Below, one piece after another: positions 1,729-44,419 of a stretch of 64,000 nt of DNA. The position numbers and the translations under genes were made by a program. The stretch lies in the NCBI RefSeq assembly GCF_056746865.1, contig NZ_CM163382.1; one strand, 5' to 3'. How positions within the stretch are numbered: position 1 is the first letter of the stretch; the number at the start of each line of letters is the position of its first letter. The notes beneath the pieces were generated by a model that was not told the origin of the DNA, did no database searches, and saw only the letters and a program-made list of their open reading frames with translations.

Positions 1729-4015
<2,287 letters not shown>

Positions 4016-9560: not shown

Positions 9561-11847
<2,287 letters not shown>

Positions 11848-19538: not shown

Positions 19539-20053
<515 letters not shown>

Positions 20054-20075
20054 CTATTTCCCTGCCTCTCCTCCC

Positions 20076-20109
20076 CGAACCGGACGTGCACCTTTCAGCG
20101 CATCCGGCT
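20076..20109 (-). ncRNA. Group II intron domain V (catalytic hairpin)
   Basis: 34-nt GAGCCGG...GAAA...CCGGTTC hairpin matching the domain V consensus, just 3' of the reverse transcriptase stop. Confidence 0.75.
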
Positions 20110-20115
20110 CTCCAT

Positions 20116-22295: not shown

Positions 22296-22713
22296 CGTAA
22301 GTAAAATCAGCCACCCACAACTGGTCAGGACGTTCTGCCACAAACTGACGGTTTACGCGGTCGCCTGCGGCAACGGCTTTCCGGCTGACGGTAGTGCGGA
22401 CCTTTTTACCCCGGAGAACACCGGCAAGTCCCATAACCGCCATGAGGCGCGCCACTGTACATCTGGCTACCCTGATTCCTTCCCGTAACAACTGACGCCA
22501 GACTTTACGCACACCGTATACCTGATGATTCCCATCGTATACGCGCAGTATCTCTTTCTTCAGCCAGTCATCGCGCTGCGCACGGGCACTGCGTTTATCA
22601 GGATGATGTCGCTGTTGCTGACAGTGGTAATACGTTGACGGGGCAATATGTAGTTCACTGCATACCGGTCCGACCCCGTACAGCTTACGCAGCTTATCCA
22701 GCAGTGGCATCAC
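22296..22713 (-). pseudogene. IS629-like transposase OrfB, N-terminal ~139 codons, interrupted by the intron after ...QLWVADFTY
   Basis: [33 protein letters not shown]...; the track ORF continues 22 codons into intron sequence. Confidence 0.75.
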
Positions 22714-23036
22714 TTTTTCCAGAGGCGGTCGAACTCCACCTTCGCAAAATAAGCGGAAGCCTGGCGAAGGATATCGTTACTGCGGCGCAGTTCACGATTT
22801 TCACGTTCCAGCTCTTTCAGACGCTGACGTTCAGCGGTGGTGAGCCCGCCATCACCGCCTCCGGTATCCCGCTCATGCTGGCGCACCCAGACACGCAGAG
22901 TCTCCGGTGTACAGCCAATCTTTGGGGCAATGGAACAAATTGCCGCCCACTGTGAGTCATATTCGCCCTGACTTTCCAGAACCATACGAATCGCCCTCTG
23001 ACGGACTTCGGGGGAAAAACGAGTATTTTTAGTCAT
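22710..23036 (-). CDS. IS629-like OrfA (HTH)
   Basis: [50 protein letters not shown]... matches remembered IS629/IS1203-type OrfA. Confidence 0.8.
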
Positions 23037-34156: not shown

Positions 34157-35245
34157 TAGACTGGCCCCCTGAATCTCCAGACAATCAATATCACTTAAAT
34201 AAGTGATAGTCTTAATACTAGTTTCTAGACTAGTCATTGGAGAATAGATGATTGATGTCTTAGGGCCGGAGAAACGCAGACGGCGTACTACACAGGAAAA
34301 GATCGCTATTGTTCAGCAGAGCTTTGAACCGGGAATGACGGTCTCCCTTGTTGCCCGGGGATGGGGAGTAAGCTTAGTCAGCCGTTGTCTCCGGGTGTCG
34401 CGTGCGCAGTTGCACGTCATTCTCAGACGAACCGATGACTGGAAAGATGGTCGCCGCAGCCGTCACTCAGATGATACGGATGTGCTTCTCCGTATACACC
34501 ATGTTATCGGAGAGCTGCCCACGTATGGTTATCGTCGGGTATGGGCGCTGCTTCGCAGACAGGCCGAACTTGATGGTATGCCTGCTATCAATGCCAAACG
34601 TGTTTACCGGATCATGCGCCAGAATGCGCTGTTGCTTGAGCGAAAAACCGCTGTACCGCCATCGAAACGGGCACATACTGGCAAAGTGGCCGTGAAAGAA
34701 AGCAATCAACGATGGTGCTCTGACGGGTTCGAGTTCCGCTGTGATAACGGAGAAAAACTGGGGGTCACGTTCGCGCTGGACTGCTGTGACCGTGAGGCAC
34801 TGCACTGGGCGGTCACTACGGGCGGCTTCGACAGTGAAACAGTACAGGACGTCATGCTGGGAGCGGTGGAACGCCGCTTCGGCAGCGAGCTTCCGACATC
34901 TCCAGTGGAGTGGCTGACGGATAATGGTTCATGCTACCGGGCTAATGAAACACGCCAGTTCGCCCGGATGCTGGGACTTGAACCGAAGAACACGGCGGTG
35001 CGGAGTCCGGAGAGTAACGGCATAGCAGAGAGCTTCGTGAAAACGATAAAGCGTGATTACATCAGTATCATGCCCAAACCAGACGGGTTAACGGCAGCAA
35101 AGAACCTTGCAGAGGCGTTCGAGCATTATAACGAATGGCATCCGCATAGTGCACTGGGTTATCGCTCGCCACGGGAATATCTACGGCAGCGGGCCAGTAA
35201 TGGGTTAAGTGATAACAGGTGTCTGGAAATATAGGGGCAAATCCA
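34157..35245 (+). mobile_element. IS2 deletion derivative (1,089 bp instead of ~1,331 bp)
   Basis: IS2 ends TAGACTGGCCCCCTGAATCTCCAGACAA... and ...CTGGAAATATAGGGGCAAATCCA; internal deletion between two TTGCCCGG repeats. Confidence 0.85.
34248..35234 (+). CDS. IS2 InsC(1-37)::InsD in-frame fusion transposase created by the internal deletion
   Basis: [37 protein letters not shown] joined directly to [21 protein letters not shown]... (InsD). Confidence 0.8.
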
Positions 35246-35440
35246 ATGGCGCAGATACGCTTGCGGATCGATACCATTCAGACAGCAGGTCCGTTCACTA
35301 CCGTAATCGCTGCCGAAGAACACATTGATTGCCCCTCAATAATCCTGCCGTCAACGTCAAAATTGCTGGTCGGGCTCGACTTATTTAATTGTGTAAACAG
35401 GGCCTCTCAGCGAAAGGCCCTTATGCATCACCTGACGTCG

Positions 35441-36007
35441 TTAAAAGTCACTACACCCAAGATGACGTTCAATGGCACCATGCGATTCAATGTAAGCCTG
35501 GGCCGTCTGTTCCAGTACACCAGGCTCAGCGTTGTATGTGTTAGCTGCATCAAATACCAACGACAGCACTTCAGGATACACAACCAGATGTGTAATGGAG
35601 TTATCTTCACCCAATACTTTTCCCCACGCCTGCTCAATCAGATTTCTGAGAGCCACCACCTCACGACTCTTACACCAGACATCGTTATTAAGTAGCAGTA
35701 CCATAAGATAAGGAGTGGTATCGTTAGCCACAGCTTCCCTACTCCAGAGATAATATAAAGGGGCGGGCTCAACAGATTTATCTTTACGTCGCTTGCACTG
35801 CAAATATTCAGAAATTAGTCTATGCAGTTCACCAGTAAAATCAGCCATCAGAGAGGGAATTGCCTTGTTCATACCTGGGCAAGGTATTAATTTAAATTGT
35901 AATAATTTAATTTTAGGATGTGTAGCTGCAGCCCGATACAGAGTTGCAAGGACATACTTTTGCCAGAGGGCGTTACAGGAAAGCTTAACGTTTGATTCTG
36001 TATACAT
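35441..36007 (-). CDS. Hypothetical protein (188 aa), AT-rich island gene
   Basis: ORF followed by a hairpin (35398-35422); no family recognised. Confidence 0.45.
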   Translation of the reverse strand: MYTESNVKLSCNALWQKYVLATLYRAAATHPKIKLLQFKLIPCPGMNKAIPSLMADFTGELHRLISEYLQCKRRKDKSVEPAPLYYLWSREAVANDTTPYLMVLLLNNDVWCKSREVVALRNLIEQAWGKVLGEDNSITHLVVYPEVLSLVFDAANTYNAEPGVLEQTAQAYIESHGAIERHLGCSDF

Positions 36008-36034
36008 AATAAATCACCTTACAGTTACAATAGG

Positions 36035-36649
36035 TCAAAAACCGCTGTAGCCAAAGTTACGCTGGCCTGATGCTTTAGTGTCGAGCTTCGTCAGATAATC
36101 CAGACGTGCCAATAAGCGCTGATATTGCTCAGGGAAATCAGGATCGTTAATATCCAGGATGTAACGTCCATTAGCAGGGAAATGAACTAGTCCCTGGTGA
36201 TCTTCCAGTTCTAACCCTAAGGCACTGTACCAGGCTCCGGTAATTAACCCTCTCAGGGTGTCAGAGCGCTCATAGTCTCCCAGGTGGTAATAGGCGTCTT
36301 TGTTAAAAAAAAGGCAGACGTGATAATGACATTTAAAGGACTGCGTATATTCTTTCGCCCAGATAATACAAACCGACGTTGCGTAGGTGCGTTTGCCTTG
36401 TTGTTTTTTACGGTGTTGATCTGCATTAATTTTCGCATTCAGCGAGTTACGGAAACGAGATATCTCTCCGGGACTCAGGTTAGGAAAACAGGTAATGGTA
36501 TCCCCGTTGTCAATCACGGGAGGATAATGGAGATCCACCCGTATTGCCGTTATTCTGGGATGTTTCTGGAAGAGGTTATTCACCTGGTTTCTTATTTTTA
36601 ACCCGTGAGCCTCATGACATTCACCGTAAAGAGTTTCAATCGTAATCAT
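36035..36649 (-). CDS. YagK/YfjJ-like (inovirus Gp2-type) prophage protein, tentative
   Basis: Size (~204 aa) and position match the yagK/yfjJ genes of CP4-type elements; family call from memory only. Confidence 0.45.
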   Translation of the reverse strand: MITIETLYGECHEAHGLKIRNQVNNLFQKHPRITAIRVDLHYPPVIDNGDTITCFPNLSPGEISRFRNSLNAKINADQHRKKQQGKRTYATSVCIIWAKEYTQSFKCHYHVCLFFNKDAYYHLGDYERSDTLRGLITGAWYSALGLELEDHQGLVHFPANGRYILDINDPDFPEQYQRLLARLDYLTKLDTKASGQRNFGYSGF

Positions 36650-36739: not shown

Positions 36740-36845
36740 CCCAGAGGGATATATAACCCTCTGGGCGTCAATTAAGAAAAACGCTACTGCCTATTGTTAC
36801 ATTAGAGAACAGGATGATGTTACACAGTTACATTAGAACGTTCTA
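36740..36845. promoter_or_regulatory. Iteron/operator-like repeat cluster in a 380-bp AT-rich intergenic region
   Basis: Palindrome CCCAGAGGG-atatataa-CCCTCTGGG (36740-36765); direct repeats GTTACATTAGA(G)AAC at 36796 and 36827; 12-bp palindrome TAGAACGTTCTA (36834-36845). Confidence 0.45.
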
Positions 36846-37030
36846 AAACATTAAACAGAGTTATGATCTACACACAACTAATTATTTGGTATCAGAATAC
36901 CATTAGCTCTATTAGTACATCATATCCATCATTACACATATACTATACATCACAGATATAATATATATTACCTATCCAACGCACATGTATTTATAACTCC
37001 ATTGCCAATAGCTACAAGGACTATAAAATG

Positions 37031-37591
37031 TTACTCTGCAGTTAGATCAACAATACCTTTATCCCAGTGTCTTTTTACAGTGGATAAACTGATGCTTAAT
37101 TTTCTGGCTGTTTGTGACTGACTGAACCCCTGCAATTTCAACTGTCTGATATTTTTACTATGAATACTCCCTTCTTTCCTTCCTGGTTTTCTTTTAATTT
37201 TCCGGATACTGATGTCGGGAATTTTTCCTCTAATATCTGTAGGTAAAATCATCCCGGTGAGTACCACAGGAATATCATCACCATCCGGCAACTCTGATGA
37301 CGTAAAAAAGCAAATATTAATACCTTGTCTGATACTTAAAGATAAAACCTCCTGTATTTTTTCCGGCGTATTACCAAAACAAGTTAACGATTTAGTAATC
37401 AGAATATCACCCCTTTGCATATCCTGCGTCAGGAGTCGAACTAACCGTTTTCTGTCTGCCAGAGTATAATCCGGGCGACCCAATTCGCCTGTTAACTGCA
37501 ATAGTGGTTCTTTAAAATATCTCTGAATCATGGATTTTAAGCGATTAAGTTTTGACCATTTTTCAGAGTCTATGTATGCAAAACTCGCCAT
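37031..37591 (-). CDS. Serine-recombinase (resolvase/invertase) homolog with C-terminal HTH, lacking the catalytic residues
   Basis: Aligns to gamma-delta resolvase (GDILITKSLTCFGN vs GDVILVKKLDRLGR; C-terminal HTH ...QTARKLSISLSTVKRHW) but YARVST is replaced by YIDSEK and DR..R by TC..N. Confidence 0.6.
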   Translation of the reverse strand: MASFAYIDSEKWSKLNRLKSMIQRYFKEPLLQLTGELGRPDYTLADRKRLVRLLTQDMQRGDILITKSLTCFGNTPEKIQEVLSLSIRQGINICFFTSSELPDGDDIPVVLTGMILPTDIRGKIPDISIRKIKRKPGRKEGSIHSKNIRQLKLQGFSQSQTARKLSISLSTVKRHWDKGIVDLTAE

Positions 37592-37812: not shown

Positions 37813-38559
37813 TCATTCATCTTCAAATGGGTTAATAATAATAACATCTCCACCTGTTCTGGAACTTTGTGAAACTTCCTCTGTTCTCAGAACAGGCACT
37901 ATTACAGCCTTATTATTGATATAAAAAATCGGAATATGAAAAGTACAAAATCCTGTACTACGAATCTGATGTCGCCTCACTGTTTCTTTCGTACCATACT
38001 CAATCAACTCATCTATCGGCAGGCAAACTGAATTGCAAAAGTCAAAAAAATAATCCCCAAAAACACTGGTTTTAATCAGAATGGTTTTATAAAACCCTCC
38101 TGCACGATTCAGGGTATGGGAAACTTTTCTGTTCGTGTAAATACAAATTGCCTTCTCAACTTTATAATATTCCAGCATTAAGGTCGCATTCTCTTTAATT
38201 CCCTTTTTCTCTGCAACTCCCATAGCATTTCTGGTGCTTTCATGAGGAAATATCTTTCTATCGAGAACATCATATTCATATTTGATATGCGATTTATAAA
38301 TGCTATGAAAAAACTCTCCTTTTGTTATTTCAGGCTTTGTCCGTTGCACAAATGGTTCCTCATTAAAAAACTGACGTAGCTTATCCTCTATATCAGTTAT
38401 AGCAGCAATATTTTCATTTATCCTGTTTAAAACAGGAGCCCCTAGCTTTAAACACTCTTTAATCGCTGCTGAAAATGAGCATTTTTTTAAATGCTGATAC
38501 TTTTTAATTACATCAGCTTCATATGTTTCTGCAAGAGAGAAAGAGACACGTTTCATCAT
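37813..38559 (-). CDS. Hypothetical protein with N-terminal ribbon-helix-helix-like domain (248 aa)
   Basis: N-terminus MMKRVSFSLAETYEADVIKKYQHLKKCSFSAAIKECLKLG has the beta-strand/helix pattern of RHH (CopG/Arc) domains; the remainder is unassigned. Confidence 0.45.
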   Translation of the reverse strand: MMKRVSFSLAETYEADVIKKYQHLKKCSFSAAIKECLKLGAPVLNRINENIAAITDIEDKLRQFFNEEPFVQRTKPEITKGEFFHSIYKSHIKYEYDVLDRKIFPHESTRNAMGVAEKKGIKENATLMLEYYKVEKAICIYTNRKVSHTLNRAGGFYKTILIKTSVFGDYFFDFCNSVCLPIDELIEYGTKETVRRHQIRSTGFCTFHIPIFYINNKAVIVPVLRTEEVSQSSRTGGDVIIINPFEDE

Positions 38560-38621: not shown

Positions 38622-38849
38622 TTAATACTGACTAATCCACCACAATAGATCACTTAATAACCACCCACAGGATTTCTTTCCAATAGTTTTACGTGGCGGG
38701 AATTTTCCTTCACGTTCCAGTTTCCAGGCTTGTGAACGAGAAATAGACGTAATTTTCTGGCGTTCCTTTTCTCGTACCAGTCTGTCACAGGTGTATCCAT
38801 AGATCTTCAAAATTGATAAACGGTTCTCATCTCTTAACGGCTTCCACAT
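38622..38849 (-). CDS. AlpA-family prophage transcriptional regulator
   Basis: ...ITSISRSQAWKLEREGKFPPRKTIGKKSCGWLLSDLLWWI matches the AlpA pattern (SRSTIYRL..GKFP.P.KLG.RSV.W...V..WI). Confidence 0.65.
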   Translation of the reverse strand: MWKPLRDENRLSILKIYGYTCDRLVREKERQKITSISRSQAWKLEREGKFPPRKTIGKKSCGWLLSDLLWWISQY

Positions 38850-39628: not shown

Positions 39629-41233
39629 ATGGTAACTAAAAAGGTAAAAACAAACCACCCGTACTATCGTGTTTTATCCGGCACCTCCATGCCGTTTCCC
39701 CACATACATGAAGCTGTTTCCGAACAGTTGCTTCTACTCATTTTCAAAGCACGCAGATTGTATCTGGATCCAGAATATCGTCCTTGGTTTGATGAACAAC
39801 ATCGGATTCTCTCGGCATTACGCGCTAACACAAAACTCCAAAGTATTTTAGAGAAAAACAGAGAGAACTACTCCATAAGTGAGACCGATAATCCACTATC
39901 TAAAGATCTGTATGCTGCTTTTCAGGTTATGTGCCATTTATACAATGGTTTTGATAACAGACTCGTCAGCCTGAAAACCTGGGGAGATATGAACAGGGAA
40001 CCAACAGCAAAATTTGTCGGCCAAAATAGTGGTGGCTGGAAAACACCTGAGATGGAAGAATTCGTCAGAAACGATTTGTTCAATATTCTGACAGATTGTA
40101 AAGCTCATTGCTCACCACTTCCCGCTCTGGTTCGACAAGGATATTGCCATCAGGATCTTTCTGTTGCGCACTCATGTACTAAAGAATTACTGGAACAACT
40201 GAACCGATACCATCAAATTGATGAATCAGCGATACTTGCCAGAACCCTTGGTTTGGCTATTAACAACTGCTATCACTCAGAAACAGAGATTCCTGAATGG
40301 CTTTCTCCTTTTGAAAATGAATACAAAAGTCCCTGGAATTGTGAGAAACCAGATACTAACGATGTGAGTAAACTTAGAAAACAATTGCTAACAATCGGGC
40401 GTACAGAATTCGTGGACAAAATGTTTTCGCTAGCCAACAAAAATGCAACAAAGATAATATATGATGGATACGTTAAACTTTATGCTCTGGAAATATATGA
40501 ATGGTTAAATAAATTAGTGCAATATTTTAAAGGAAATGATTTTATTCGTTACACCTGGAAGTTCACAACAATTATTTCCGATGAAAGTGACACGATTGAA
40601 AACACCACCGCATGGGAAAAAGACTATTGTCAAATCACTATACAGCGTGATGAACTTCTGAAACTGATTTATACCAATACCCTGCAGGATGCAGCAATGA
40701 ATCTTGCTGATTGCCTGCAACAGGCATACACAGAACCGTTAAAAATGGAAATAAATTATCCAGGAATAAACATTGATGCAAAAGAGCGTAAAATTAGAAA
40801 ATCTATTGAATTCAGGAGCGAACTGAATAACTTCACAAACATCATGAAACAACTGGAAATATTTGAAAAATGGTATAACGCCAATAAAATTCTGTTGGTA
40901 AGTAACAAAAAGATACGTACAGAAAAGATTGACGTGAATATTCGTCTTGCAGGACTAAAAGGCTATGATCTGAATGAAGGTATACCTGATGGTCAGGGAC
41001 GCAGAATTAAAGATGGTGTAAATGAACTTGTCAAGGCAGATGGCAGTCTACAACTTCCACAAGATATCAGTGACACTTCGCTTAACCGTTACCGTCAAGC
41101 AGTTCAACACATTATTAAGGATGAGATCGACACGTTGCTGATAGCACAGAGGGAAAAAAATAAAATAAATCCATATAGCGAAGATAGATACTCGATACGA
41201 CCTTTATGGGGAAAATGTCTGGTCGAACAGTAA
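39629..41233 (+). CDS. Hypothetical protein (534 aa), AT-rich, in the integrase-proximal cargo slot; function unknown
   Basis: Long ORF with SD GGAAG upstream; no recognisable catalytic motifs apart from a possible R-x4-H (RQAVQH) near the C-terminus. Confidence 0.6.
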   Translation: MVTKKVKTNHPYYRVLSGTSMPFPHIHEAVSEQLLLLIFKARRLYLDPEYRPWFDEQHRILSALRANTKLQSILEKNRENYSISETDNPLSKDLYAAFQVMCHLYNGFDNRLVSLKTWGDMNREPTAKFVGQNSGGWKTPEMEEFVRNDLFNILTDCKAHCSPLPALVRQGYCHQDLSVAHSCTKELLEQLNRYHQIDESAILARTLGLAINNCYHSETEIPEWLSPFENEYKSPWNCEKPDTNDVSKLRKQLLTIGRTEFVDKMFSLANKNATKIIYDGYVKLYALEIYEWLNKLVQYFKGNDFIRYTWKFTTIISDESDTIENTTAWEKDYCQITIQRDELLKLIYTNTLQDAAMNLADCLQQAYTEPLKMEINYPGINIDAKERKIRKSIEFRSELNNFTNIMKQLEIFEKWYNANKILLVSNKKIRTEKIDVNIRLAGLKGYDLNEGIPDGQGRRIKDGVNELVKADGSLQLPQDISDTSLNRYRQAVQHIIKDEIDTLLIAQREKNKINPYSEDRYSIRPLWGKCLVEQ

Positions 41234-41315: not shown

Positions 41316-41942
41316 TTATGCGGCTTTACCATTAACAGATTCAGCCACAAGAACGACAGCGTGTCTGTTTCGCTCAGGATGTTCACTCCAGATTTCTGAT
41401 TCCGGGATGCTTTTCCCGTCATAACTGATCCGTTCGCCATCAAACGGGTAATACCGTGCGGAATCAGTATCTAAAATAAACACCTTCAGATTCGTTGAAC
41501 GACGCGCAATATGCTGCCAGAGAGCTTTACCTCCTTCATATTGCTCGTTATCACTTAATAGTACAACGCCCGCTTTTGTGACTATCGTTTCATAAACAAA
41601 CGTTGCAAGACCAACATCACGTACAGCGCCATCGACAACAATCCCTTCAATCTGAGCAACATCCTGTTCTTCCCAGAATTTCTGGACAAACACGCCTTCA
41701 AGCCGGGGACGACGCTGAAGCTCCAGAGTGGCAACAACCTTATGGCGAACATCACCATCAATAACAGAAGGTGCAGCTTCGATTACCGCAGCAAACGGAG
41801 TCTTTGGATCCCAGATGATCTGGTAAAGCACGCCCTGAATAGTTACTCCATCCAGTATCGAAAAACGACGAGCTACAGTAGCAGGGGAGTAAGACATTGG
41901 AATTACAGCCATTTTTGAATCCCCTCTGAGTAATACCGGCAC
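41316..41942 (-). CDS. Hypothetical protein (198-208 aa); GTG start at 41942 or ATG at 41912
   Basis: ORF convergent with the 534-aa gene; both candidate starts have an SD; no family recognised. Confidence 0.5.
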   Translation of the reverse strand: MPVLLRGDSKMAVIPMSYSPATVARRFSILDGVTIQGVLYQIIWDPKTPFAAVIEAAPSVIDGDVRHKVVATLELQRRPRLEGVFVQKFWEEQDVAQIEGIVVDGAVRDVGLATFVYETIVTKAGVVLLSDNEQYEGGKALWQHIARRSTNLKVFILDTDSARYYPFDGERISYDGKSIPESEIWSEHPERNRHAVVLVAESVNGKAA

Positions 41943-42041: not shown

Positions 42042-43358
42042 TCACCTTCTGCCAAACAGATTGACAACATTATTGCCTGTTTGCTGTTGATAGTTATTAA
42101 CCCGGTCCTCCCAGATCTCAAGTGCTCTGCGTTTTTCTGGCAAATAATCGTATCGATCATAATGTTTTGAACTGACATCGTTCAACGCATGATTTTGAAT
42201 ACGATCGCGGATTTCCTTACTGATCCCAGCTTCTCCCATTAACGTTTTACAGGTCCGACGTAAGTCACGTGCTGTAAAAATTTTAAAGTCAGGATTAAAA
42301 GCCCGGAAATACATGATAGCGCGAGCCAGACTGTCCGTACGAACCGGACGCTTACCATTAGTCGAAAGTGGAAAAATGTAAGGGCTGGATTTTTCTTTTG
42401 TTAACTCCTGCACACAGGATAATTCCTGTAATGCTGATTCAGTCAACGGTATCAAATGCTCTCGTTTATTTTTAGAGACATCAGCAGTCACCAGCAGCGT
42501 TTTTTGTTGAAAATCAACATCACACCACTGACTGGCGATCATTTCGAAAGGACGTTGCCCTCCGGTATAGATACAGAATCGGATCAAATGTTGCATCAAT
42601 AATCCAACGTTGGTTGCTTCAGCAAAATGTTCCATTAGAAAACGCAACTCTTCAAGTGTCAGCCAGGTATCACCGACTTTTTCAGCAGATGACTGTTTCG
42701 GTATCACTGACACCGGATTTGCCTCCAGCCCAAAAGTAATCCCTACACTTGTGTTCATCGGATCGTTATCTGCTTTCAGTCCATAGTTAAATGCAGCCAT
42801 CAGGTAAGAACGGATCCGGTTAGAGTGAACCACAGCACCGCGCTGAATGATCCCGGCCAGGATATGTTTAATCTGTCCGGAAGTCACATCTTTAGCTTTA
42901 GTTTCACGGGGGATCACTGTATAGCATTCATTTTCAAGGCGTTTCAGAACATCCTGCCATGTCCTCTTATTATCAATTTTCATTTTGTTAACATAACCAT
43001 GAATCAATGCTTCAAATGAGCCCTGTGATTGATGGAGTTGTATCCGCTGCTGTTCTGCAAACTGTTGTCGTTCCAGTTCTGCCTGGGGATCCTTTCCTTC
43101 AATGAGCCAGGCACCATACTTTTTTGTCAGTTCATTCGCTGTGGCCAGTTTCATCTCAGGCCATATACCCAATTGAATGAATCTTTCTTTTTTCCCTTTT
43201 TCCACGTAATAGCGGAAATAGAAAATCTTGCTGCCAGAAGGCTGAACTTTGACACCAAGTCGTCCAGTGCCACGTTGAGAGCTGTTGCTCCAGACATAGA
43301 ACGATGTCTTTTTTGCTTTCAATGCTCGGATGGCTGTTTCAGTAAGATTGACGGCCAT
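42042..43358 (-). CDS. int: P4-type tyrosine integrase
   Basis: 438-aa protein with N-terminal arm-binding domain (KIFYFRYY...) and C-terminal tyrosine-recombinase domain; adjacent to the tRNA-derived attachment core. Confidence 0.85.
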   Translation of the reverse strand: MAVNLTETAIRALKAKKTSFYVWSNSSQRGTGRLGVKVQPSGSKIFYFRYYVEKGKKERFIQLGIWPEMKLATANELTKKYGAWLIEGKDPQAELERQQFAEQQRIQLHQSQGSFEALIHGYVNKMKIDNKRTWQDVLKRLENECYTVIPRETKAKDVTSGQIKHILAGIIQRGAVVHSNRIRSYLMAAFNYGLKADNDPMNTSVGITFGLEANPVSVIPKQSSAEKVGDTWLTLEELRFLMEHFAEATNVGLLMQHLIRFCIYTGGQRPFEMIASQWCDVDFQQKTLLVTADVSKNKREHLIPLTESALQELSCVQELTKEKSSPYIFPLSTNGKRPVRTDSLARAIMYFRAFNPDFKIFTARDLRRTCKTLMGEAGISKEIRDRIQNHALNDVSSKHYDRYDYLPEKRRALEIWEDRVNNYQQQTGNNVVNLFGRR

Positions 43359-43405
43359 AGAACCTCTTTTCTAAACCAGTAACAATCAGAATAACTCGTG
43401 ATTTT

Positions 43406-43428
43406 GGGTCAGGTAATGGGTCAGGTAA
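43406..43428. repeat. Tandem direct repeats GGGTCAGGTAA x2 between integrase and the att core (candidate integrase arm sites)
   Basis: Two 11-bp copies separated by 1 bp, located 48 bp upstream of the integrase start. Confidence 0.5.
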
Positions 43429-43554
43429 CGATCGTACAATGAAGAAAAAACGGAACCAAGCGGAGACAGGGAAAATCACATAATTTATTGATTACAAACA
43501 ACTAATAAAGCAATCACGAACAAACAAAAACAATATAGAACGAACTTGCCTCAT

Positions 43555-43601
43555 GACTCATAATCGCTTGGTCGCTGGTTCAAGTCCAGCAGGGGCCACC
43601 A
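43555..43601 (+). other. ileX: 3' 47 nt of tRNA-Ile(CAU) (ileX-type): island/backbone junction (att core); the 5' part of the tRNA is absent here
   Basis: GACTCATAATCGCTTGGTCGCTGGTTCAAGTCCAGCAGGGGCCACCA matches the remembered 3' portion of E. coli tRNA-Ile2 from the anticodon loop to CCA; sequence upstream does not match the tRNA. Confidence 0.7.
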
Positions 43602-43610
43602 GATATAGCA

Positions 43611-43645
43611 AAGGCTGACGAGAAATCGTCAGCCTTTTTCTTTTT
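43611..43645 (+). terminator. Rho-independent terminator (native ileX terminator)
   Basis: Hairpin AAGGCTGACG-agaaat-CGTCAGCCTT followed by TTTTTCTTTTT. Confidence 0.75.
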
Positions 43646-43654
43646 ATATATCAG

Positions 43655-44419
43655 TTACTTTGCGTGCCAGTAAGCCGCTGCACGTACCCGCTGTGGATCA
43701 TACTGTTCCGCTTCAAAGCGGCGGCTTAAATTCTTAACGACTTTGCCTTCGCCGGTTATCCAGATGAAGTAATCATCGGCAGGGATTTGCATCTGCGCCA
43801 GACGCGCATCTACCGCCTGCTCATCATGTGCCAGCCATTCGATATTAAAACCATCAAGGTGCGCGAGATAATCCTGACAGGCGTGATCCCGCACGCTAAC
43901 CAGCGCGCTAACTTGCGGTTTAACAGCAAGTTTGCTCAACGTTTCCAGGCGGCGGCGCAGTGCGGGCATTCCGGATTCATCGCAGACATACAGCTGATAC
44001 GCGTAATCCTCTGGCATCACCAGCGAACCGCGCGGACCTGCCACCGTGAGTTTATCGCCCGGTTGCGCCTGCATTGCCCAGCTGCTGGCGACGCCACCTT
44101 CGTGAATAAAGAAATCAATCGCCAGTTCATGGCGTAGTTCGTCATACAGCGGCGTATAGTCACGCGACGGTGGGCGTGGTCCTTCCGGCCAGACGATGCC
44201 CTCTTCCGTTACCGTTGGCGGCACAAAGTGAGCATCAGATTGAGGAAAGAAGAGTTTGCTGTGATCGTCAAAGCCGCGCGATGTAAAACCGTCCAGCGCC
44301 TCGCCGCCAAGGACAATGCGCTGAAAACCGGCGCTAATACGCTCAGCGCGTAGCACAGTCAGTTCACGGAAGCGCAGATCATTGCGAACGCGCTGCGGGT
44401 AGCGGGGGGAGTTATTCAT
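43655..44419 (-). CDS. yqjH: Siderophore-interacting protein / NADPH-dependent ferric chelate reductase
   Basis: 254-aa protein matching remembered E. coli K-12 YqjH; conserved position after ileX. Confidence 0.9.
   Translation of the reverse strand: MNNSPRYPQRVRNDLRFRELTVLRAERISAGFQRIVLGGEALDGFTSRGFDDHSKLFFPQSDAHFVPPTVTEEGIVWPEGPRPPSRDYTPLYDELRHELAIDFFIHEGGVASSWAMQAQPGDKLTVAGPRGSLVMPEDYAYQLYVCDESGMPALRRRLETLSKLAVKPQVSALVSVRDHACQDYLAHLDGFNIEWLAHDEQAVDARLAQMQIPADDYFIWITGEGKVVKNLSRRFEAEQYDPQRVRAAAYWHAK

What the first reader, a model, noticed from the sequence alone, without database searches (positions are those of the whole stretch)
35441..36649. Pair of small island genes (YagK/YfjJ-like plus 188-aa unknown) at the inner edge of the integrative module
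These two co-oriented genes terminate in a hairpin just before the IS2 derivative. YagK/YfjJ-family proteins recur in CP4-type elements but have no established function; the 188-aa neighbour is unassigned. They may be the last conserved genes of the P4-like module, with IS2 marking a secondary boundary.
Basis: partly seen in the sequence, partly recalled or inferred. Interest (0 to 1): 0.3.

Follow-up and report, generated by a model that had tools for sequence, protein, structure and literature searches.

The report
Active and dead Rep-like gene pair
The two small genes at the inner end of this E. coli island's integrase module are both members of the YagK/YfjJ family of phage-replication-initiator-like nickases: the first has every catalytic residue and the second has lost them all, which is an ordinary, already annotated island feature with one small twist.

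Summary
Two co-oriented minus-strand ORFs lie at 36035-36649 (204 aa) and 35441-36007 (188 aa). A stable hairpin (35399-35421) follows, and an internally deleted IS2 (34157-35246) lies 177 nt beyond it.

The 204-aa protein is a clear YagK/YfjJ member: PF11726 E 4e-55, 59% identical to K-12 YagK. It has the HUH motifs R37-D39-H41, H108-Y-H110 and Y185-L-T-K188. Its model matches HUH nuclease domains and microvirus/inovirus replication initiators.

The "unknown" 188-aa protein also passes the PF11726 cut-off (E 6.6e-10). It keeps the fold and 9 of 28 family-invariant residues but has lost every candidate catalytic residue. It is almost confined to E. coli, and sampled alleles give dN/dS of about 0.1-0.35.

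In 39 loci from other species, YagK/YfjJ is consistently the last gene of int-alpA-(YfjI helicase or YagM+YagL)-YagK. This window has the CP4-6 arrangement.

Best reading: a Rep-like nickase that probably processes or replicates the excised island, plus a catalytically dead paralogue that may modulate it. Function is untested. RefSeq already gives both genes family names. Interest is low to moderate.

The parts
36035..36649 (-). 204-aa YagK/YfjJ-family protein (inovirus Gp2-like HUH/Rep-type nuclease) with all catalytic motifs intact
35441..36007 (-). 188-aa divergent, motif-less paralogue of the same family (probable pseudo-enzyme)
35399..35421 (-). Hairpin after the 188-aa gene; the edge of the block shared with other islands falls at 35423
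   Evidence: There is no U-tract. A similar hairpin follows K-12 yagK.
36964..36990 (-). Conserved promoter box upstream of the 204-aa gene (TTGGATAGGTAATATA at 36964-36979); 5' limit approximate, the -35 region being diverged
   Evidence: GGAWAGKTAWTATW is present upstream of yagK-like genes in 33 of 37 loci and is rare elsewhere. It corresponds to the sigma-70 promoter TTTAGA-16-TATAAT mapped for K-12 yagK, H-NS bound (PMC3946193). The -35 region is diverged in the window copy.
36740..36765 (-). Strong hairpin with a 9-bp GC-rich stem and 8-nt AU loop in the long leader of the 204-aa gene; role unknown
   Evidence: -19.3 kcal/mol, z -5.2. It is not followed by a U-run. Comparable hairpins are not universal in other loci.
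37031..37591 (-). YagL-like protein (C-terminal HTH_7; weak, sub-threshold resolvase-domain match)
   Evidence: 36% identical to YagL. HTH_7 E 3.7e-5; resolvase domain only E 0.073, below the Pfam cut-off.
37813..38559 (-). YagM-like protein with no known domain
   Evidence: 31% identical to YagM. No Pfam hit.
38622..38849 (-). AlpA-family regulator
   Evidence: PF05930 E 2.5e-14.
42042..43358 (-). P4-type tyrosine integrase at the outer end of the module, next to nfeF
   Evidence: Arm-DNA-bind_3 plus Phage_integrase. RefSeq annotation.
34157..35246 (+). Internally deleted IS2 inserted 177 nt beyond the hairpin

Best explanation
The two genes form a tandem pair of YagK/YfjJ ('inovirus Gp2-like') proteins, small single-domain members of the HUH/Rep nuclease superfamily. 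They close the conserved core of a P4-integrase/AlpA-type genomic island of the CP4-6 kind (int ... alpA-yagM-yagL-yagK). Shown: family membership of both proteins; the intact motif set in the 204-aa protein; loss of that set in the 188-aa protein; the conserved position at the end of the module; and a conserved promoter box upstream. Inferred: the 204-aa protein is an active metal-dependent ssDNA nickase, with the HUH histidines binding the metal and Tyr185 (or Tyr163) as nucleophile. After AlpA/Int-driven excision it would nick the island at a still unidentified site, to start rolling-circle-type replication or otherwise process the circle, borrowing a host helicase. Sister islands instead carry a DUF3987 helicase (YfjI) next to yfjJ. 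Also inferred: the 188-aa protein cannot cleave DNA and acts as a non-catalytic partner or modulator of the active enzyme or of its site. By analogy (from my own knowledge), gene X protein modulates gene II protein in Ff phages, and inactivated HUH-fold domains serve as origin-binding domains in papilloma- and polyomaviruses. Expression is probably low, from an H-NS-silenced promoter.
Confidence: 0.55

Rival explanations
1. Both genes are inert leftovers of a cryptic island. The 204-aa gene is a silenced relic, and the 188-aa gene is a decaying duplicate with no function of its own.
For: An IS2 insertion lies next door. The K-12 yagK promoter is H-NS bound. Remnants, frameshifts and stop codons occur in several strains. 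The 188-aa lineage is almost confined to E. coli and has no close relatives among 1.8 billion cluster representatives.
Against: dN/dS is well below 1 in all 20 informative allele pairs (0.11-0.35). The 188-aa ORF was intact in 6 of the 7 alleles sampled from the 792 genomes that carry the gene at near full length. The canonical family keeps 27 invariant columns across Enterobacterales and Aeromonas. The position in the module is strictly conserved.
Confidence: 0.2
2. The 204-aa protein is a Rep-like relaxase. It nicks an oriT so that the excised island is mobilised by a conjugative plasmid or packaged as ssDNA, rather than replicated. The 188-aa protein is its accessory factor.
For: The predicted chemistry is the same HUH nicking. 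Homologues also sit on large conjugative plasmids: 67 plasmid records, 41 of them conjugative. Rep-like (MOB_T) relaxases of integrative elements are an established precedent (PMC6499999, PMC5090054; title and abstract).
Against: No oriT, coupling protein or mobilisation gene was seen in the module. The closest sequence and fold relatives are replication initiators of ssDNA phages, not relaxases. In sister islands the gene is paired with a replicative-type helicase.
Confidence: 0.15
3. The proteins are DNA-binding regulators or phage-interference factors (a domesticated Rep fold) that control island or helper-phage genes without cleaving DNA.
For: The gene sits at the junction with defence and cargo genes; in CP4-57, abpAB and rnlAB follow yfjJ. 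The promoter spacer is unusually conserved, which suggests an operator. Inactivated HUH folds acting as DNA binders are known (my own knowledge).
Against: Strict conservation of the HxH and YxxK residues in the canonical family argues for catalysis. There are no PADLOC hits. The 188-aa protein has lost many basic residues and has pI 6.5, which is a poor fit for a DNA binder.
Confidence: 0.1

Closest known systems
E. coli K-12 YagK (CP4-6) and YfjJ (CP4-57), Pfam PF11726 YagK_YfjJ_C
   Same: The 204-aa protein is 59% and 39% identical to them, has the same length, shares all invariant residues and occupies the same position after yagL/yagM (CP4-6 type) at the end of the int-alpA module. The 188-aa protein passes the same HMM.
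   Different: K-12 has a single copy in each island. Here a second, motif-less paralogue follows the first. The 188-aa protein shares only 9 of 28 invariant residues.
Rolling-circle replication initiators of ssDNA phages (inovirus gpII/G2P, PF23343; Microviridae VP4/gpA-like)
   Same: HUH motif and Tyr-Lys motif. hhalign aligns HYH on HYH (E 7e-5). BFVD fold hits have probability about 1. NCBI's name for the family is 'inovirus Gp2 family'.
   Different: The protein is about 200 aa, against 390-600 aa for the named BFVD initiator hits and 463 aa for the MT135359 protein. PF23343 is below its cut-off for the 204-aa protein (21.6 against 27.8 bits). The gene sits in an integrase/AlpA island with no phage structural genes. 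No origin was identified.
Ff phage gene X protein, and inactivated HUH-fold origin-binding domains (papillomavirus E1, SV40 large T)
   Same: These are precedents (from my own knowledge) for a non-nicking relative of a Rep protein working beside or in place of the active enzyme, which is the role proposed for the 188-aa protein.
   Different: Gene X protein is an in-frame C-terminal fragment of gpII, not a diverged paralogue. No interaction or DNA binding has been shown here.
Satellite and island cores of int + alpA + replication gene (PICMI; intY/alpA islands of Pseudomonas)
   Same: The logic is the same: an integrase-AlpA excision module followed by replication genes. PICMI replicates as concatemers (PMC10803314). 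An inovirus Gp2-like protein is listed among likely core genes of the Pseudomonas islands.
   Different: PICMI depends on a primase gene (prim; the paper's single DUF3987 mention was not inspected), not on a YagK-like protein. No helper phage or packaging evidence exists for this island.

Membership tests
YagK/YfjJ family (PF11726) | Score above the Pfam gathering cut-off (25.8 bits) | tested here: met
   204-aa protein: 186.8 bits. 188-aa protein: 39.6 bits.
YagK/YfjJ family (PF11726) | Family-invariant residues (27 invariant columns plus nearly invariant H110 in a 30-sequence alignment, 28 positions) | tested here: inconclusive
   The 204-aa protein has all of them. The 188-aa protein has 9 of 28, limited to core positions W88, E91, N107, L120, I124, A127, W128, R181, G184.
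YagK/YfjJ family (PF11726) | Position as last gene of the int-alpA-(yfjI | yagM-yagL) module | tested here: met
   The window order is int, alpA, YagM-like, YagL-like, 204 aa, 188 aa. The same order holds, wholly or in the part held, in about 35 of 39 loci from other species.
HUH endonuclease superfamily (Rep class) | HUH metal-binding motif on a beta-strand | tested here: met
   204-aa protein: H108-Y-H110 on predicted strand 107-116. 188-aa protein: P99-Y-L101, so not met for that protein.
HUH endonuclease superfamily (Rep class) | Catalytic tyrosine (YxxK) on a helix downstream of HUH | tested here: met
   204-aa protein: Y185-L-T-K188 on helix 172-187, with a second invariant Tyr at 163. 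188-aa protein: Q167 and Q170 at these positions and L150 for Y163, so not met. Which tyrosine is the nucleophile is not resolved.
HUH endonuclease superfamily (Rep class) | HUH nuclease fold | tested here: met
HUH endonuclease superfamily (Rep class) | Site-specific ssDNA cleavage with a 5'-phosphotyrosine intermediate | not testable with these tools
   Needs biochemistry.
HUH endonuclease superfamily (Rep class) | Cognate origin or nick site near the gene | tested here: inconclusive
   The conserved upstream box is a promoter. The window has a strong hairpin at 36740-36765, but such hairpins are not conserved across loci.
Inovirus gpII / G2P (PF23343) | Score above the cut-off (27.8 bits), and residence in a filamentous-phage genome | tested here: not met
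   21.6 bits for the 204-aa protein and none for the 188-aa protein. Only 2 of 50,697 phage records match, neither an inovirus. The neighbours are island genes.
P4-like satellite | P4-type integrase plus AlpA | tested here: met
P4-like satellite | Alpha primase-helicase and capsid-size or regulatory genes (sid, psu, delta) | tested here: not met
   No such domains were found in the seven ORFs between the integrase gene and the pair's hairpin (Pfam, PHROGs).
Anti-phage defence system (PADLOC) | Match to a known defence protein model | tested here: not met
   No hits for six module proteins.

The most novel reading that the evidence does not exclude
YagK/YfjJ proteins are the replication-initiating nickases of a very large class of integrase/AlpA islands usually written off as cryptic, which would make those islands replicative, satellite-like elements. 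Catalytically dead tandem paralogues such as this 188-aa protein, and the independently degenerated one in Citrobacter L043, would be a recurrent class of 'pseudo-Rep' partners that tune or license origin firing, a chromosomal-island counterpart of the gpII/gpX pair of filamentous phages.
Probability: 0.15. Interest if true: 0.55.

Novelty: new member of a known kind. Interest (0 to 1): 0.27.

Why it matters
YagK/YfjJ genes are among the commonest uncharacterised genes of enterobacterial islands: the 204-aa protein's close DNA relatives are in 1581 of 5426 complete E. coli genomes. They sit at the seam between the conserved excision core and the variable cargo or defence genes. If they are active Rep-type nickases, many "cryptic" islands would have their own replication or processing step after excision. 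That bears on how such islands spread, including by phage transduction. The dead paralogue offers a natural control and a possible regulator. As it stands this is a tidy annotation refinement, not a discovery.

Tried and rejected
1. The conserved box TTGGATAGGTA(A/T)TATA as a replication origin or nick site. I rejected this in favour of a promoter. It coincides with the sigma-70 promoter TTTAGA-16-TATAAT mapped by genomic SELEX for K-12 yagK. The local fold is no better than shuffles (z +1.4).

2. A universal leader hairpin between promoter and start codon. Perfect stems of 9-10 bp occur in 7 of 27 loci, 9 loci have no stem of 7 bp or more, and the distribution overlaps the shuffles.

3. The 11.7-kb Salmonella "plasmid" CP101363.1, which carries identical genes, as an excised circular form. 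It is a linear contig that includes chromosomal aer-nfeR-nfeF and ends at the IS2 junction.

4. The 4.5-kb "phage" record OR844780.1, which has a 42% identical homologue. It is an unverified, unannotated, low-coverage contig and tells us nothing.

5. A defence-system role. There are no PADLOC hits.

6. NCBIfam gave no model for either protein. A PDB sequence search gave no relative.

7. The exhaustive HMMER search with the 188-aa protein found only its own fragments and a few canonical relatives at about 31-34% identity. A profile search showed that, among its nearest relatives, only its own lineage and the L043 paralogue lack the motifs.

Full report
**Observation**

The window is E. coli chromosome. 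RefSeq genomes match the 1701-bp region around the finding at 100% identity. The genes to the right of the island are nfeF, nfeR, aer and patA, and the ORFs beyond them are those expected for the ebg operon.

These are also the RefSeq CDS calls. The two genes are 27 nt apart, and each is preceded by a Shine-Dalgarno-like sequence (read).

A hairpin with a 10-bp stem follows the second gene at 35399-35421. It has no U-tract, and the terminator scan did not call it.

The IS2 copy ends with its IRR at 35246 and spans 34157-35246. It has an internal deletion of about 240 bp, and its single ORF appears to fuse InsC to InsD (the full-length IS2 size and the InsC/InsD sequences are from my own knowledge).

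**Identity of the two proteins**

- The 204-aa protein hits PF11726 (YagK_YfjJ_C) at E 4e-55, with a weak hit to PF23343 (replication-associated protein ORF2/G2P).
- It is 59% identical to K-12 YagK and 39% identical to YfjJ.
- The 188-aa protein, described as unknown, also passes PF11726 (E 6.6e-10, 39.6 bits against a cut-off of 25.8).
- It aligns with its neighbour at 23% identity, E 8e-7.
- RefSeq already names both proteins "inovirus Gp2 family", "inovirus-type Gp2" or "YagK/YfjJ domain-containing".

**Catalytic anatomy**

An alignment of 30 family members from many Enterobacterales has 27 invariant columns. They include:

- R37, D39 and H41.
- H108, with H110 nearly invariant.
- Y163.
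- Y185 and K188.

This is the pattern of HUH (Rep-class) nucleases: motif I, HUH and YxxK. The AlphaFold model of the 204-aa protein (pLDDT 84) puts HUH on a strand and YxxK on a helix.

Structure and profile comparisons agree with that reading:

- Among predicted viral structures, the named matches are Microviridae replication initiators and "Inovirus Gp2".
- A profile-profile comparison aligns KCHYHxCLFFNKD with RPHYHGVLFFSKN of a microvirus initiator that itself carries PF23343.
- Tisza et al. used PF11726 as a Microviridae/Inoviridae Rep model.

So the Rep-like nature of the family is already known at the annotation level. I found no functional study of it.

**The 188-aa paralogue**

In alignment with the family it keeps only 9 of the 28 family-conserved positions (the 27 invariant columns plus nearly invariant H110): W88, E91, N107, L120, I124, A127, W128, R181 and G184. 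It replaces every candidate catalytic or metal-binding residue: R37Q, D39K, H41I, H108P, H110L, Y163L, Y185Q and K188Q.

Its distribution and variation:

- The lineage is narrow. A word-indexed search and an exhaustive HMMER search of 1.84 billion representatives found only E. coli-type sequences, plus a few canonical relatives at about 31-34% identity.
- In a profile search, essentially all near relatives keep the HxH pair. Those lacking YxxK appear to be C-terminally frameshifted or truncated sequences (inferred from P0176). Only this lineage and one other lack both motifs.
- The gene covers at least 80% of its length in 792 of 5426 complete E. coli genomes.
- Pairwise dN/dS among seven sampled alleles is 0.11-0.35. 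One allele carries a stop codon.
- The protein is slightly acidic (pI 6.5, against 8.2 for its neighbour).

The other motif-less paralogue sits downstream of an intact YagK-like gene, after a 313-bp gap, in Citrobacter sp. 18056 (L043). It has KYY in place of HYH, no Tyr-Lys motif, and pI 6.4. That is a second case of the same active-plus-dead arrangement.

**Context**

I retrieved 39 loci from other species. The order there is strikingly constant: integrase, often a YfjH-like gene, alpA, then either YfjI (DUF3987) or YagM plus YagL, then YagK/YfjJ as the last recognisable gene.

The window follows the YagM-YagL-YagK (CP4-6) version. DUF3987 has been shown to be a 5'-3' helicase used in MGE replication (PMC11724360). 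In Pseudomonas, an inovirus Gp2-like protein is listed among the likely core genes of intY/alpA islands that a jumbo phage transduces.

In E. coli, the block shared with variant islands runs from 35423, inside the hairpin, to 36186. That block is the 188-aa gene plus the last 152 nt of the 204-aa gene.

- In those variant islands the 204-aa gene is reduced to a 65-aa remnant, and another Gp2 paralogue lies 1.4 kb upstream.
- E. albertii has the 204-aa gene, frameshifted, without the 188-aa gene.
- Beyond the hairpin the cargo differs between strains.
- IS2 was inserted 177 nt beyond the hairpin, into DNA that is continuous in other strains.

**Cis elements**

A box GGAWAGKTAWTATW lies upstream of the yagK-like gene, on the sense strand, in 33 of 37 loci. 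It has only seven other matches in about 0.8 Mb counting both strands. It occurs once in the window, at 36964-36977.

I first considered it as a candidate origin. It instead coincides with the sigma-70 promoter TTTAGA-16-TATAAT mapped for K-12 yagK by genomic SELEX, which is marked as H-NS bound (PMC3946193). The conserved spacer suggests an overlapping operator. In the window copy the -35 region has diverged.

The implied leader of about 300 nt contains a strong hairpin at 36740-36765 (z -5.2). Comparable hairpins are not general across loci. No origin was identified.

**Mechanism**

The best-supported reading (confidence 0.55 for the package) has two parts:

- The 204-aa protein is an active Rep-type nickase that acts on the excised island to start rolling-circle-type replication or related processing.
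- The 188-aa protein is a catalytically dead paralogue kept under purifying selection, acting as a partner or modulator.

Family membership, the state of the motifs, the synteny and the promoter are shown. Catalysis, the substrate and any interaction between the two proteins are inferred.

The rivals are inert relics (0.2), a Rep-like relaxase for mobilisation (0.15) and a non-catalytic regulator or interference factor (0.1). Frequent truncation of these genes and H-NS silencing weigh towards the relic view. Residue conservation across genera, and dN/dS below 1, weigh against it.

**Verdict**

The finding is real and its family assignment is correct. The "unknown" neighbour is a degenerate member of the same family. 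Both genes are already annotated in public genomes, so the pair is a new member of a known kind. The added observation is modest: an active/dead tandem arrangement seen in two lineages. Interest 0.27.

Noticed in passing
window 36964-36990 (minus strand): A conserved box TTGGATAGGTA(A/T)TATA lies upstream of yagK/yfjJ-like genes in 33 of 37 loci from many genera. It matches the SELEX-mapped, H-NS-bound sigma-70 promoter of K-12 yagK. The spacer is far more conserved than promoters usually need, which suggests an operator. Similar boxes lie upstream of alpA in L014, L017 and L029.
   Followed up: partly
window 36740-36765: A near-perfect palindrome CCCAGAGGG-ATATATAA-CCCTCTGGG (9-bp GC-rich stem, AT loop, z about -5) lies in the roughly 300-nt leader of the 204-aa gene. 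It has no U-run, so it is not an obvious terminator. Its role is unknown.
   Followed up: partly
L043:5956-7513 (Citrobacter sp. 18056; also L044): A second case of an intact YagK-like gene (HYH, YxxK) followed by a motif-less paralogue (KYY, no Tyr/Lys, pI 6.4), with a YfjI-like helicase gene after it.
   Followed up: partly
L006:9595-11815 (also L005, L047, L049): In most E. coli genomes carrying the 188-aa gene, the 204-aa gene is replaced by a 65-aa C-terminal remnant, two 'zinc ribbon' genes, a third Gp2 paralogue (199 aa, HIH/YLAK) and an Hha/YmoA-family gene. This points to recombination inside yagK-like genes between islands.
   Followed up: partly
window 42042-43655: The P4-type integrase gene abuts nfeF, but ARAGORN finds no tRNA or tmRNA gene anywhere in the 64-kb window. 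In strain EC-107 the same module lies next to ypjCB/ypjA instead. The attachment site is unidentified.
   Followed up: no
window 39629-41233 (+) and 41316-41942 (-): A 534-aa ORF between int and alpA has no Pfam, NCBIfam, PHROGs or PADLOC hit (60% identical homologue in E. albertii, L025). A 208-aa ORF matches only PHROGs families of unknown function.
   Followed up: no
window 3583-3705, 11415-11537, 20026-20112, 22639-22755: Rfam finds two identical isrC sRNA copies, a group II intron domain and an ALIL (IS3-family frameshift) pseudoknot elsewhere in the window. This points to a composite, IS-rich island region to the left.
   Followed up: no
L050 (CP101363.1, Salmonella 'plasmid' pIndS102_4): This 11.7-kb record is labelled a plasmid, but it is a linear contig carrying chromosomal aer-nfeR-nfeF plus this island module with proteins identical to the E. 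coli ones. It ends at the IS2 junction, so it is probably a mislabelled or contaminant contig.
   Followed up: yes
window 37031-37591: The YagL-like protein has a C-terminal HTH_7 but only a weak, partial match to the resolvase catalytic domain (E 0.073). Like the 188-aa protein, it may be an inactivated enzyme fold reused for DNA binding.
   Followed up: no
L046:320-886: Strain 7_33_46A carries yet another 188-aa YagK/YfjJ-family gene (HAH, YLAK, unrelated in sequence to the window's 188-aa protein) on the far side of the IS2 copy. Several paralogue lineages therefore coexist in single E. coli island regions.
   Followed up: no
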